Origin: Candidatus Eiseniibacteriota bacterium
GTDB lineage: Bacteria > Eisenbacteria > RBG-16-71-46
Direction: 5' to 3'
NCBI GenBank assembly: GCA_036507005.1
Contig: DASXQT010000075.1
Location: 37,178-101,177, forward strand
DNA length: 64,000 bases
The translations under genes were made by a program, and so were the position numbers. How positions within the stretch are numbered: the first letter of the stretch is position 1; each line of letters starts with the position of its first letter. The notes under the pieces were generated by a model that saw only the letters and a program-made list of their open reading frames with translations, made no database searches and had not been told where the DNA came from. Below are positions 28,500 through 30,794 of this stretch, piece by piece.

Positions 28500-30794
28500 A
28501 TGCGAATGAGGGCGCAACTCCCAGGGCCGGGCCGGCGGGCGGGTACGCCCCGCCCTCCCGGCGCGCGCGCCTTCGCACTCCGGCTCGCCGCGCTGGCCGC
28601 GGCGCTGGCCGCGCTCTCCTCCTGCGCCTACTACAACACCTACTACCTGGCGCGGAAGTACTACTACCGCGGCACCAGCGGCGAGCCCTACTCGGTGGAA
28701 GGCCCGTCTCAGGCGAACGCCTCGCAGTTCAACAAGGCGATCGACTACTCCAAGAAGGTGCTGGCGCAGTATCCCAAGTCGAAGTGGGTGGACGACGCCT
28801 ACCTGATGTGGGCGCGCTCGCTGCTCGGCAGGGACGACCCGATCCAGACCGTGAACATGCTTCAGGACTTCACCACGCGCTTCCCCAAGAGTCCGCTGGG
28901 CTCGGAGGCGATGTTCTACCTGGGCGTGGCCAACCGCCAGGCGCGGCGCTATGCGGATGCGCTCACCGCGCTCGACGAGTTCCTGCGCCGCGCTCCGCGC
29001 CACGCGCTCGCGCCCCACGCGTACCTCGAGCGCGCGCGCACCTTGGTGGCGCTCGAGCGCCCGGCGGAGGCGGCGGAGGCCGCCACCCGGCTGCTCGAGC
29101 GCTATCCCAAGAGCCCGCTCGTGCCCCGGGCGCTCGCCCTGCGCGCGGAGGCGCGGCTCGCCAACGGCGACTACGAGCTGGCGCGCGCCGACTTCCACGC
29201 CCTGGGCACGCGGGCGCTGAGCGACGAGGAACGCCTCGGGTTCCTCCTGCGCGAGGCGGATTGCATCGAGGCCGCCCGCCAGTACGAGAAGGAGCTGGCC
29301 CTGCTGCGCGACGCGCTCTCGCACGAGCACGAGCCCGTGGCGCCCGACACCACCGGCGGGAAGCCCGCCGTCGGGCCCACCACGCCGGCCGCGCAGCACT
29401 GGGGGCGCCTCATGCTGCGCGTCGGCAGCGCCCAGCTCCTGGCGGGGCGCGTCCCCGATGCGCTCTCGGCCTACGAGCGCGTGGTCCACGCGTATCCCAA
29501 GACCGAGCTGGGCGCCGAGGCGCAGTACCGGCAGGGGTTCGCCTACGAAACCGCGGCCGAGGACTTCGACAAGGCGCGCGACCAGTACCGGAAGGTCCGG
29601 GACCATCTGGCCTCGGGGCCGTCCTTCAACCTCGCCTCCGAGCGGCTGGGCAATCTCGACCGGCTCGCCCAGTACCGCAAGGCGGGCGGCGACTCGCTGC
29701 AGAAGGGAGCCGAGGCGGATTTCCTCCTCGCCGAGCTGTACCTGTTCACGCACGACAAGCCCGAGCGCGCGCTCGAGGAGTACCGCCGCATCGCGAAGAC
29801 CTATCGAGGCACGCCGTACGCGGCCAAGGCGATGAATGCCGAGGCCTGGGTGCTGAGCCGGAAGCTGGACCGCAAGGCCGAGGCCGAGAGCCTGTTCTGG
29901 CGGGTGGTGCGCGAGTATCCCGCGACCGACGAGCAGCTCGCCGCGCGCGATTACCTGGAGATCGCCGGGCAGAAGGTGCCGGACAAGCTCATCAAGCGGC
30001 CGGCGCCCAAGCCGCCTCCGAAGCCCGCGCCGCGCGACACGCTGGGGCAGGCGCCCGCGCCACGCGACACGCTGCCGAAGGCGCCGGCGCCCCAGGCGCC
30101 GGCCGTCCTGGGTCCCGCGGTCCGCCCGCCGCTCGTCGCCGGTCCCGACTCGCTGCGGCTCGGGATCCGGCATCCGGGCGTGGGCCTGCAGGTGCCGGCC
30201 GGACCCGTGCCGTTCCCGGTCCCGCCGCCCACGCGGTCCGCAGGCGACAGCGGCGCGACTCGCGACACCGCCACCGCGCGCAGAGTCGCGCCGCCCGACA
30301 CGGCGGCCCGGCGCGCGCCGGTGCTTCCGGCGGCCCGGGACACGGCGCCTGCTCGCCCGCGATTCGGCCTGCCGCGGCCCACCCCGGCGCCGTGGACGGT
30401 CGCGCGCGACACGGCGCGTTCGATCGCGCGCGCGGACAGCGTGCGGCGTCCCGCGGCGCGCGACACGGGGCGCTCGGCGGCGCGGCCGGACACGGCGCGG
30501 CGGGCGATGGTGCGCGACACGGTGCGCTCGATCGCGCGCGCGGACAGCGTTCGGCGTCCCGCCATGCGCGACACGGCGCGGCGGGCGATGGTGCGCGACA
30601 CCTCGCGCTCGGCGGCGCGGCCGGACACGGCGCATCGCGTCGCGGCGAAGCGCGCGCCGCGCGACACGGCGCACGCCGCGCGGCCCGATACCACGCGGCG
30701 GCGCACCGGCAAGCCGGCGCGCCGAGACACCACGCATTCGGGCGCCCGGCCGGATACCGCGGCCCCGGCGCCCGCGCGCGACACGAGGGAGTGA
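28500..30794 (+). CDS. TPR-repeat lipoprotein with Arg/Asp/Thr-rich repetitive disordered C-terminal tail
   Basis: ATG 28500. Lipoprotein signal ...[14 protein letters not shown]|AYY. BamD/YfiO-like TPR repeats through about residue 500. Then a Pro-rich linker and a tail of ARDTARSIARADSVRRPAARDTGRSAARPDTARRAMVRDT... repeats. Confidence 0.7.
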   Translation: MRMRAQLPGPGRRAGTPRPPGARAFALRLAALAAALAALSSCAYYNTYYLARKYYYRGTSGEPYSVEGPSQANASQFNKAIDYSKKVLAQYPKSKWVDDAYLMWARSLLGRDDPIQTVNMLQDFTTRFPKSPLGSEAMFYLGVANRQARRYADALTALDEFLRRAPRHALAPHAYLERARTLVALERPAEAAEAATRLLERYPKSPLVPRALALRAEARLANGDYELARADFHALGTRALSDEERLGFLLREADCIEAARQYEKELALLRDALSHEHEPVAPDTTGGKPAVGPTTPAAQHWGRLMLRVGSAQLLAGRVPDALSAYERVVHAYPKTELGAEAQYRQGFAYETAAEDFDKARDQYRKVRDHLASGPSFNLASERLGNLDRLAQYRKAGGDSLQKGAEADFLLAELYLFTHDKPERALEEYRRIAKTYRGTPYAAKAMNAEAWVLSRKLDRKAEAESLFWRVVREYPATDEQLAARDYLEIAGQKVPDKLIKRPAPKPPPKPAPRDTLGQAPAPRDTLPKAPAPQAPAVLGPAVRPPLVAGPDSLRLGIRHPGVGLQVPAGPVPFPVPPPTRSAGDSGATRDTATARRVAPPDTAARRAPVLPAARDTAPARPRFGLPRPTPAPWTVARDTARSIARADSVRRPAARDTGRSAARPDTARRAMVRDTVRSIARADSVRRPAMRDTARRAMVRDTSRSAARPDTAHRVAAKRAPRDTAHAARPDTTRRRTGKPARRDTTHSGARPDTAAPAPARDTRE
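30405..30640. repeat. nested direct repeats (units of about 64, 29 and 22 bp, roughly 90% identical copies) encoding the RDT-repeat tail
   Basis: cgcgacacggcgcgttcgatcgcgcgcgcggacagcgtgcggcgtcccgc... recurs 115 bp later. gcgctcggcggcgcggccggacacggcgc and ggcgggcgatggtgcgcgacac are each duplicated. Confidence 0.6.

What the first reader, a model, noticed from the sequence alone, without database searches (positions are those of the whole stretch)
28500..30794. TPR lipoprotein with a repeat-encoded Arg/Asp/Thr-rich disordered tail inserted inside the pyrimidine operon
An unrelated 764-aa lipoprotein gene sits between pyrC and pyrK, where the stop-start overlaps otherwise link pyrB-pyrC and pyrK-pyrD-pyrF. 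Its last 250 aa are low-complexity. A Pro-rich spacer (APKPPPKPAPRDTLGQAPAPRDTLPKAPAPQAP) is followed by at least 10 R-D-T-centred repeats (ARDTARSIARADSVRRPAARDTGRSAARPDTARRAMVRDT...). At the DNA level these are nested direct repeats of 64, 29 and 22 bp at about 90% identity (30405-30640), indicating recent duplication and a substrate for expansion or contraction.
Basis: partly seen in the sequence, partly recalled or inferred. Interest (0 to 1): 0.55.

Follow-up and report, generated by a model that had tools for sequence, protein, structure and literature searches.

The report
SprE/PorW-like lipoprotein with a sequon-repeat tail
The gene is real, but it is an old resident of the pyrimidine operon in Candidatus Eisenbacteria rather than an insertion: it encodes an outer-membrane TPR lipoprotein that most resembles the type IX secretion protein SprE/PorW, and its disordered tail repeats the three-residue signal that Bacteroidota use for O-glycosylation.

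Summary
ORF 28500-30794 (764 aa) has a lipobox (Cys42), a confidently modelled all-helical TPR body, and a roughly 230-aa disordered tail built partly from recent DNA duplications. It lies between pyrC and pyrK.

The 'insertion' reading is not supported. All Eisenbacteria relatives with enough flank have pyrB-pyrC-carA-carB-TPR-pyrK-pyrD-pyrF. This genome instead lost carAB, leaving a carB relic in the 306-nt gap.

The one conserved feature of the tail across 110 homologues is D-[S/T]-[L/T/A/V]. There are 622 observed against 54 expected, and 78% of tail Asp precede S/T. This is the Bacteroidota O-glycosylation sequon. Charge and Arg content are not conserved.

Best reading (about 0.5): a compact SprE/PorW-like scaffold with a multiply O-glycosylated, fast-evolving tail. 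No glycosylation or T9SS core was shown here.

The parts
28500..30794 (+). Gene for the 764-aa TPR lipoprotein (public annotations start at 28506)
28500..28625 (+). Signal peptide with lipobox L-S-S-C. Cys42 is the lipidated first residue of the mature protein. The motif AYYNTYY follows directly after it.
   Evidence: C42, N46 and T47 invariant in 91 homologues
28626..29999 (+). All-helical TPR scaffold of about 22 helices (11 helix pairs). It includes the KSKWVDDAYLM motif at residues 93-103.
29346..29354 (+). D283-T-T sequon in the 274-296 loop. The consensus there is xDTTGG.
29691..29699 (+). D398-S-L sequon (D398 invariant) in the loop that corresponds to the insertion point of the SprE/PorW finger region
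30000..30392 (+). Pro/Ala-rich linker with dispersed sequons (PRDTL x2, PDSLR, PPDTA, ARDTA and others). The model loses confidence from residue 511 (pLDDT 50-60 for 511-531) and is below 50 for 532-764.
30393..30635 (+). Nine in-phase 27-nt (9-aa) units, each with one D-T or D-S at a fixed position. This stretch holds the 65-, 32- and 29-nt recent duplications.
30636..30794 (+). Distal degenerate repeats (RDTAH, PDTTR, RDTTH, PDTAA, RDTRE) and the stop codon. pyrK starts 6 nt later.
28237..28413 (+). Degenerate relic of the 3' part of carB in the pyrC-TPR gap. It is 39% identical over 59 codons to CarB of relatives.
   Evidence: E 2e-7 against the gap alone; weak nucleotide matches at the same carB position in many loci
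25867..28193 (+). pyrB (25867-26862) and pyrC (26859-28193)
30801..33462 (+). pyrK (30801-31673), pyrD (31670-32752) and pyrF (32749-33462)

Best explanation
The gene encodes an outer-membrane-anchored, periplasm-facing TPR scaffold lipoprotein that is conserved throughout Candidatus Eisenbacteria and related lineages. Its folded part is a compact relative of the type IX secretion translocon lipoprotein SprE/PorW and lacks the 'finger' insertion. It most likely acts as a periplasmic scaffold under an outer-membrane secretion or assembly machine (inferred).

The C-terminal 230-260 aa form an intrinsically disordered tail. Its only conserved property is a high density of the triplet D-[S/T]-[L/T/A/V/I/M], which is the Bacteroidota general O-glycosylation sequon. 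The tail is therefore most likely a multiply O-glycosylated, protease-shielded spacer (inferred, not shown).

The tail turns over rapidly by slippage or unequal recombination of 27-nt units, while selection keeps the sequons. In this lineage the array has recently expanded in an extremely GC-rich and Arg-rich version.

The gene's position between carB and pyrK is ancestral, and the gene is probably co-transcribed with the pyr genes. This genome deleted carA-carB and left a carB relic.
For: Shown:
- Lipobox with invariant Cys42.
- Confident TPR model with pLDDT 91.7. The tail has pLDDT below 50 and no secondary structure.
- Shared motifs: KWVDDAYLM is identical in a verified PorW (L017, 594 bits to NF052312), and SprE has IDEAYLMLGKA at the same place. 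The post-Cys motif YN-x-x-Y is also shared.
- The profile of distant relatives aligns end to end with PorW, with the finger region as the only large insertion. In the PDB, SprE is the best natural bacterial hit for that profile.
- T9SS type-A sorting domains occur on two proteins in the same window, scoring 37.3 and 24.1 bits against a cutoff of 23.
- Tail statistics in 110 homologues: 78% of Asp are followed by S/T (15% expected); 622 sequons are observed against 54 expected; the third position is A/I/L/V/M/T in 82% against 38% expected.
- The window tail has 17 sequons. Shuffles give a mean of 1.2 and a maximum of 6.
- Distant relatives show 7.4-fold enrichment.
- Charge is not conserved (-11 to +12 per 100 aa), nor is Arg content.
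- Synteny. carB relic. DNA duplications.

From papers:
- The sequon and its third-position preferences (PMC12871550).
- PorW is among the outer-membrane-associated proteins with the most glycosylation sites (PMC8729774).
- SprE is a TPR lipoprotein with disordered, dispensable finger and C-terminal regions, and its O-glycosylation matters for its stability (PMC10994853).
Against: - The protein scores only 42.8 bits on the PorW/SprE model, whose cutoff is 250.
- A planctomycete TPR protein, from a phylum not known to have a T9SS, scores 141 bits on that model. It aligns to the family profile at 99.4% probability. Sequence-profile similarity among TPR_6 proteins is therefore not specific.
- The Eisenbacteria profile alone did not retrieve SprE from the PDB at E below 0.1.
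- No T9SS core gene was examined, and a true PorW could exist elsewhere in the genome.
- Verified Bacteroidota porW loci are not next to pyr genes.
- The other nine non-cytoplasmic proteins of the window show no sequon enrichment (14 observed, 14.1 expected). A general O-glycosylation system is thus not indicated by this small sample.
- Positions flanking the triplet (P/A/R before it, R/H two residues after the S/T) are also biased. This could mean a different recognition motif.
- No glycosylation machinery was identified.
Confidence: 0.5

Rival explanations
1. It is the lineage's BamD or a BAM-associated lipoprotein. The N-terminal TPRs would dock on BamA, and the extra TPRs and tail would be lineage-specific additions.
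For: - Pfam YfiO scores 41.1 bits, above its gathering score of 25.
- TIGR03302 BamD scores 75.8 bits, just under its 81.4 cutoff, and matches from the lipobox onward.
- It is a universally conserved single-copy lipoprotein in the phylum, as expected of an essential factor.
Against: - BamD aligns over only 150-176 residues, against 414 for SprE.
- The scaffold has about 11 helix pairs over about 460 aa, whereas BamD has 5 TPRs in about 250 aa.
- TIGR03302 is below its cutoff here and scores much lower (45-60 bits) in six of seven other family members tested; only P0044 is comparable at 79.3.
- A bona fide PorW also hits the BamD model at 58 bits, so this hit does not discriminate.
- The KWVDDAYLM and YNxxY motifs are shared with PorW/SprE.
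Confidence: 0.15
2. It is a periplasmic TPR scaffold with some other partner, such as Tol-Pal/CpoB-like or cell-wall synthesis. Its tail motif would be a multivalent peptide ligand binding a partner, peptidoglycan or its own TPR groove, rather than a glycosylation site.
For: - TIGR02795 YbgF scores 110.5 bits against a cutoff of 90.1, and CpoB is the best PDB sequence hit for the family profile.
- The flanking positions of the motif are biased: P/A/R before it and R/H after it.
- There is no sequon enrichment in the other exported proteins of the window.
- Some distant relatives replace the tail with TonB_C or OmpA-like domains, which suggests a binding role for the C-terminus.
Against: - The YbgF score is a sum of five separate repeat matches, and generic TPR proteins score far higher on the same model.
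- CpoB is not a lipoprotein, has an N-terminal coiled coil and sits in the tol-pal operon.
- In distant relatives the flanking residues change, for example PADTTGA, ADSVQAP and VDSTAAP, while D-[ST]-[hydrophobic or T] persists. This fits the three-residue sequon better than a longer peptide ligand.
- Tail charge ranges from strongly acidic to strongly basic.
Confidence: 0.25
3. The tail is non-functional low-complexity sequence: translated GC-rich repeat DNA or an assembly artefact, with no selected role.
For: - The tail DNA is 82-83% GC, and all six frames are open across it.
- The repeats are recent.
- SprE's disordered C-terminus is dispensable for secretion in F. johnsoniae (PMC10994853).
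Against: - Every one of 110 homologues, and many distant relatives, keep a tail with the same triplet although the tails cannot be aligned.
- 78% of Asp precede S/T, which GC bias does not explain.
- GC3 stays at 0.90-0.92 in frame.
- The repeats are at most 65 nt, shorter than sequencing reads, and two assemblies carry the identical protein.
Confidence: 0.05

Closest known systems
SprE / PorW, the type IX secretion system periplasmic lipoprotein (NCBIfam NF052312; F. johnsoniae SprE in PDB 8gl8 chain I; P. gingivalis PorW PGN_1877)
   Same: - N-terminal lipoprotein.
- Shared (V/I)D(D/E)AYLM motif and YNxxY motif near the N-terminus.
- Disordered, poorly conserved C-terminal region.
- Many O-glycosylation sequons. 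SprE and PorW are experimentally O-glycosylated.
- T9SS cargo is present in the same genome.
   Different: - 42.8 bits against the 250-bit cutoff.
- About 11 rather than 13 TPR units.
- No finger region.
- The post-Cys motif starts directly at the lipidated Cys, instead of about 16 residues later.
- The sequons form a tandem array in the tail.
- The gene is embedded in the pyr/car operon, unlike Bacteroidota porW, which lies next to PBP1a or a PorX-like gene in the loci examined.
BamD / YfiO (PF13525, TIGR03302)
   Same: Outer-membrane lipoprotein with N-terminal TPRs. The Pfam model passes its threshold.
   Different: Twice the number of repeats, a 260-aa disordered tail, a TIGR03302 score below cutoff, and a much shorter structural alignment than with SprE.
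CpoB / YbgF (TIGR02795)
   Same: TPR_6-type repeats. The model is nominally above its cutoff.
   Different: The score comes from five summed repeat matches. This protein is a lipoprotein without a coiled coil, and it is not in a tol-pal operon.
Substrates of the Bacteroidota general O-glycosylation system, with sequon D-(S/T)-(A/I/L/V/M/T)
   Same: - The same triplet, with third-position preferences L, T, A, S, V, I, M.
- A non-cytoplasmic protein, with the sites in soluble, disordered regions.
   Different: - The organism is an Eisenbacterium. The system has been shown only in Bacteroidota, and motif enrichment has been noted in Fibrobacterota.
- 17 sites lie in a tandem array, which is mucin-like.
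- No proteome-wide enrichment was seen in this window.

Membership tests
T9SS PorW/SprE (NF052312) | Whole-protein score at or above the curated cutoff (250 bits) | tested here: not met
   42.8 bits, matching model positions 65-198 only. Seven other family members score 35-42 bits. The best distant relative reaches E 3e-54, still below cutoff.
T9SS PorW/SprE (NF052312) | N-terminal lipoprotein signal (lipobox plus Cys) | tested here: met
   L-S-S-C with Cys42 invariant in 91 sequences
T9SS PorW/SprE (NF052312) | Extended TPR scaffold with the SprE shape | tested here: met
T9SS PorW/SprE (NF052312) | Specific sequence homology beyond generic TPR similarity | tested here: inconclusive
   hhalign gives 96.7% for the Eisenbacteria profile (A1) and 99.8% for the distant-relative profile (A3) against a verified PorW, and the KWVDDAYLM motif is shared. 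However, a planctomycete TPR protein gives 99.4% against A3 and 141 bits on the PorW model.
T9SS PorW/SprE (NF052312) | Finger region inserted in the ninth TPR (SprE) | tested here: not met
   In the PorW alignment of the related A3 profile, the finger is a gap in the family. By correspondence, the window protein has only a short loop at residues 395-399.
T9SS PorW/SprE (NF052312) | Genome encodes a T9SS (cargo sorting domains; SprA/Sov, PorV, PorK/L/M/N) | tested here: inconclusive
   Type-A sorting domains above cutoff occur on window proteins 44797-46824(-) and 43179-44762(+), and 19744-22734 has a sorting-domain-like C-terminus. Core machinery genes lie outside what could be searched.
T9SS PorW/SprE (NF052312) | Physical association with the SprA/Sov translocon | not testable with these tools
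   Needs biochemistry, or complex prediction with an Eisenbacterial SprA.
BamD (TIGR03302 / PF13525) | Score above the curated cutoff | tested here: inconclusive
   PF13525 scores 41.1 against 25 (met). TIGR03302 scores 75.8 against 81.4 (not met). Of seven other family members, six score 45-60 bits and P0044 scores 79.3; all are below cutoff.
BamD (TIGR03302 / PF13525) | Five-TPR lipoprotein of about 240-300 aa | tested here: not met
   About 22 helices over residues 71-488, plus a 260-aa tail.
CpoB/YbgF (TIGR02795) | Soluble periplasmic protein with an N-terminal coiled coil and one C-terminal TPR domain, encoded in the tol-pal operon | tested here: not met
   This is a lipoprotein with TPRs throughout, encoded in the pyr operon. 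The 110.5-bit score is summed from 5 stretches.
Bacteroidota-type O-glycoprotein | Non-cytoplasmic protein carrying D-(S/T)-(A/I/L/V/M/T) | tested here: met
   19 sequons, 17 of them in the tail, against 1.2 expected. The family-wide figure is 622 against 54.
Bacteroidota-type O-glycoprotein | Organism shows sequon enrichment in its non-cytoplasmic proteins | tested here: not met
   Nine other exported proteins of the window have 14 observed against 14.1 expected. The sample is small.
Bacteroidota-type O-glycoprotein | Glycan attached to the sequon Ser/Thr | not testable with these tools
   Needs glycoproteomics.

The most novel reading that the evidence does not exclude
Sequon-directed O-glycosylation and a compact, finger-less SprE/PorW are not confined to Bacteroidota. 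They would be ancestral to a wider part of the FCB group. In Eisenbacteria and their relatives, this heavily glycosylated secretion scaffold would be hard-wired into the PyrR-controlled car/pyr operon (carB-TPR-pyrK, with overlapping or near-abutting genes). Its synthesis would then be tied to pyrimidine (UDP-sugar) supply.
Probability: 0.2. Interest if true: 0.65.

Novelty: new variant of a known kind. Interest (0 to 1): 0.45.

Why it matters
Sequon-directed O-glycosylation is currently treated as a Bacteroidota speciality. A 2025 review (PMC12871550) names its origin and its spread to sister phyla as open questions.

A protein family outside Bacteroidota keeps nothing in its tail except dense D-S/T-hydrophobic triplets. 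Its Bacteroidota look-alikes, SprE and PorW, are known glycoproteins. This gives a concrete, testable substrate for asking whether the system and the T9SS scaffold predate Bacteroidota.

The finding also corrects the operon history. The gene is ancestral in the car/pyr cluster, and this genome lost carAB.

Finally, the controls show that HMM and profile scores for TPR_6 proteins should not be read as family membership.

Tried and rejected
- PorW homology by HMM or hhalign scores alone was rejected as decisive. A planctomycete TPR protein scored as well. A profile search also returned mostly generic TPR proteins of about 1000 aa.
- Taxonomy of distant relatives from cluster members returned no organism names.
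- No paper in the library mentions both Eisenbacteria and type IX secretion or T9SS.
- No promoter-like or terminator-like sites were found in 28100-30900.
- The pyrC-TPR gap has no significant RNA fold (z -0.30).
- No Rfam match was found in the gap or the gene.
- carA/carB were sought in the window and are absent.
- Proteome-level sequon enrichment was tested on the window's exported proteins and not found.
- The reading that Arg-richness or positive charge is the functional feature was rejected. The window's tail is the extreme of a range from -11 to +12 per 100 aa.
- Antisense ORFs across the tail (29951-30838 and 29992-30825) were dismissed as products of the GC content.
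Full report
WHAT IS THERE

The ORF 28500-30794 (+) gives a 764-aa protein. Public annotation has the identical protein from the ATG two codons downstream. That record is P0001, 762 aa, named 'tetratricopeptide repeat protein' from a Candidatus Eisenbacteria MAG.

The mechanical ORF reaches back to 28206, but 28194-28499 has flat GC at all three codon positions. The gene itself has GC3 of 0.94, so the upstream extension is not coding.

The N-terminus is a lipoprotein signal ending in L-S-S-C. 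Cys42 is invariant in 91 homologues and is followed directly by the nearly invariant AYYNT(F/Y)Y.

The TPR gene stops 6 nt before pyrK.

THE TAIL

AlphaFold2 with a 51-sequence alignment gives pLDDT above 90 for the helical body. For residues 532-764 it gives pLDDT of 33-39 with no secondary structure.

The DNA repeats are real. They are 65 nt at 90.8% identity, 32 nt at 100% and 29 nt at 100%, nested within nine in-phase 27-nt units at 30393-30635. All are shorter than a sequencing read, so an assembly collapse is unlikely.

All six frames are open across the tail, so an open frame is not evidence of coding. The evidence for translation is GC3 of 0.90-0.92 in frame and, above all, conservation at the protein level in homologues.

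SYNTENY

A scan of one genome per species found 16 Eisenbacteria-type loci.
- In every locus that extends far enough, the order is pyrB-pyrC-carA-carB-TPR-pyrK-pyrD-pyrF, usually followed by an ECF sigma factor.
- carB ends at or overlaps the TPR start, and the TPR stop lies 3-40 nt before pyrK.
- More distant relatives P0276, P0279 and P0312 score only about 300 bits or less on the Eisenbacteria profile, yet keep pyrB-pyrC-carA-carB-TPR-pyrK-pyrD-pyrF, preceded by pyrR in P0276 and P0279. P0358, labelled 'Bacteroidota bacterium', keeps TPR-pyrK-pyrD.

The gene is therefore an ancient member of this operon, not an insertion.

The window differs because it lacks carA-carB. The 306-nt gap still contains a 59-codon stretch, 28237-28413, that is 39% identical to the C-terminal part of CarB of relatives. 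Weak nucleotide matches fall at the same carB position. No carAB is present elsewhere in the 64 kb.

WHAT THE FOLDED PART RESEMBLES

Domain models give generic answers: TPR_6, YfiO above the Pfam threshold, YbgF above cutoff only by summing five repeats, BamD TIGR03302 just below cutoff, and a local 43-bit match to the T9SS PorW/SprE model.

The head model has pLDDT 91.7 and about 22 helices. It was searched against solved structures.
- BamD structures align over 150-176 residues.
- Foldseek gives SprE the best query-normalised TM-score, 0.53.

At the sequence level, a verified PorW (L017, 594 bits on NF052312) shares the nonapeptide KWVDDAYLM with the window protein. SprE has IDEAYLMLGKA at the same position.

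An exhaustive profile search found a large family (808 representatives at E below 1e-30) that shares the lipobox, C-AYYNTFY and (K/R)W-x-DDA. The profile of 64 distant members aligns with PorW from the lipobox to the last repeat. The PorW finger region is the single large insertion. For that profile, SprE is the best natural bacterial hit in the PDB, ahead of CpoB and BamD.

CONTROL

These scores are not specific. A 1038-aa TPR protein from a planctomycete aligns to the same profile at 99.4% probability and scores 141 bits on the PorW model.

I therefore rest the SprE/PorW resemblance on four things:
- the full-length structural match;
- the two short shared motifs;
- the lipoprotein anchor;
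- the presence of T9SS cargo in the same window. Two proteins carry type-A sorting domains above cutoff, and a third has a sorting-domain-like C-terminus.

I do not file the protein as a member of NF052312.

WHAT IS CONSERVED IN THE TAIL

The tails of 110 homologues range from 71 to 358 aa and cannot be aligned. Even so:
- 78% of their Asp residues are followed by Ser or Thr (15% expected).
- D-[ST]-[AILVMT] occurs 622 times against 54 expected.
- The third position is L, T, A, S, V, I or M in 94% of cases.

The window's tail has 17 such triplets. Shuffles give a mean of 1.2 and a maximum of 6.

Distant relatives show the same enrichment (7.4-fold) in quite different flanking contexts, such as PADTTGA, ADSVQAP and VDSTAAP.

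Net charge ranges from -11 to +12 per 100 aa. The window has the most Arg-rich and most basic tail of all.

Two further conserved triplets sit in loops of the body. D283-T-T is one. The other is the invariant D398-S-L, which lies where SprE's finger is inserted.

LINK TO KNOWN BIOLOGY

D-(S/T)-(A/I/L/V/M/T) is the sequon of the Bacteroidota general O-glycosylation system. The published third-position preferences are L, I, V, T, A, S and M. It is used on soluble regions of non-cytoplasmic proteins. Motif enrichment is reported mainly in Bacteroidota and, similarly, in Fibrobacterota, and the origin of the system is an open question (PMC12871550).

P. gingivalis PorW is among the outer-membrane-associated proteins with the most glycosylation sites found or predicted (PMC8729774).

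F. johnsoniae SprE is a 13-TPR lipoprotein with a disordered finger and a disordered C-terminal 113 aa. Both are dispensable for secretion. SprE is O-glycosylated, and that glycosylation is important for its stability (PMC10994853).

LIMITS

- Glycosylation is inferred from the motif alone.
- The nine other exported proteins in the window show no sequon enrichment (14 observed against 14.1 expected).
- No oligosaccharyltransferase could be named.
- No T9SS core gene was examined.
- The reason for the deep linkage with carB and pyrK remains unexplained.

VERDICT

The 'insertion' interpretation is replaced by 'ancestral operon member, with carAB lost here'.

The most likely identity is a compact SprE/PorW-like scaffold lipoprotein. 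Its rapidly evolving tail would be an array of O-glycosylation sites (confidence about 0.5).

The rivals are a BamD-type role (0.15), another TPR scaffold whose motif is a peptide ligand (0.25), and junk or artefact (0.05).

Noticed in passing
window 28237-28413 (+): The pyrC-TPR gap holds a degenerate relic of the carB 3' region, 39% identical over 59 codons to CarB of relatives. carA-carB, present at this spot in all relatives examined, are missing from the whole 64-kb window.
   Followed up: yes
window 25825-25927 (+); pyrR at 22971-23519: A sub-threshold PyrR-binding-site match (RF00515, 42.1 bits against a gathering score of 54, E 0.003) overlaps the annotated pyrB start. A pyrR gene lies upstream. 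In relatives (L021, L023) pyrR abuts pyrB, but here ada, ogt and a DUF4440 gene lie between them.
   Followed up: partly
window 44797-46824 (-), 43179-44762 (+), 19744-22734 (+): Three large exported proteins have T9SS type-A sorting or FlgD-Ig-like C-terminal domains. Por_Secre_tail scores 37.3 and 24.1 bits against a cutoff of 23. This indicates type IX secretion cargo in an Eisenbacterium.
   Followed up: partly
window 3130-5439 (+): A 769-aa membrane protein has a PMT_2 (GT-C, ArnT/PMT-like) domain just above threshold (28.9 bits against 26.1). This is the kind of enzyme that glycosylates periplasmic substrates from polyprenyl-linked donors. No link to the tail was shown.
   Followed up: no
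window 40958-60623: A polysaccharide and nucleotide-sugar cluster: GT4 glycosyltransferases, GDP-mannose dehydratase-like genes, UDP-glucose dehydrogenase, rfbB/rfbC-like genes, Wza-like exporter, Wzz, and a Wzx-type flippase. In distant relatives (L021, L023) similar nucleotide-sugar genes follow pyrF after one intervening gene.
   Followed up: no
distant relatives P0150-P0268 (alignment A3): Some members of the wider family carry a folded C-terminal domain in place of the disordered tail. 14 of 64 match TonB_C (best E 2e-42), and a few end in OmpA-like sequences (P0221, P0252, P0255).
   Followed up: partly
L024 8001-11806: A relative labelled 'Bacteroidota bacterium' (P0358, 692 aa, 101 bits on the PorW model) also lies directly upstream of pyrK-pyrD, without carB. 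The TPR-pyrK linkage thus extends beyond the core Eisenbacteria family. Verified porW loci L017 and L018 lack it; L018's porW is followed by a PorX-like response regulator with a PglZ domain.
   Followed up: partly
window 33512-35847 (+): An ECF sigma factor and a zf-HC2 anti-sigma factor with a CarboxypepD_reg domain follow pyrF. The sigma factor is found after pyrF in at least 8 relatives, and the pair is annotated at L025. The anti-sigma factor has its own Pro/Ala-rich low-complexity region but no D[ST] sequons.
   Followed up: no
window 29951-30838 (-) and 29992-30825 (-): Long antisense ORFs (295 and 277 aa) cross the tail. All six frames lack stop codons there at about 83% GC, so these are artefacts of composition.
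   Followed up: yes
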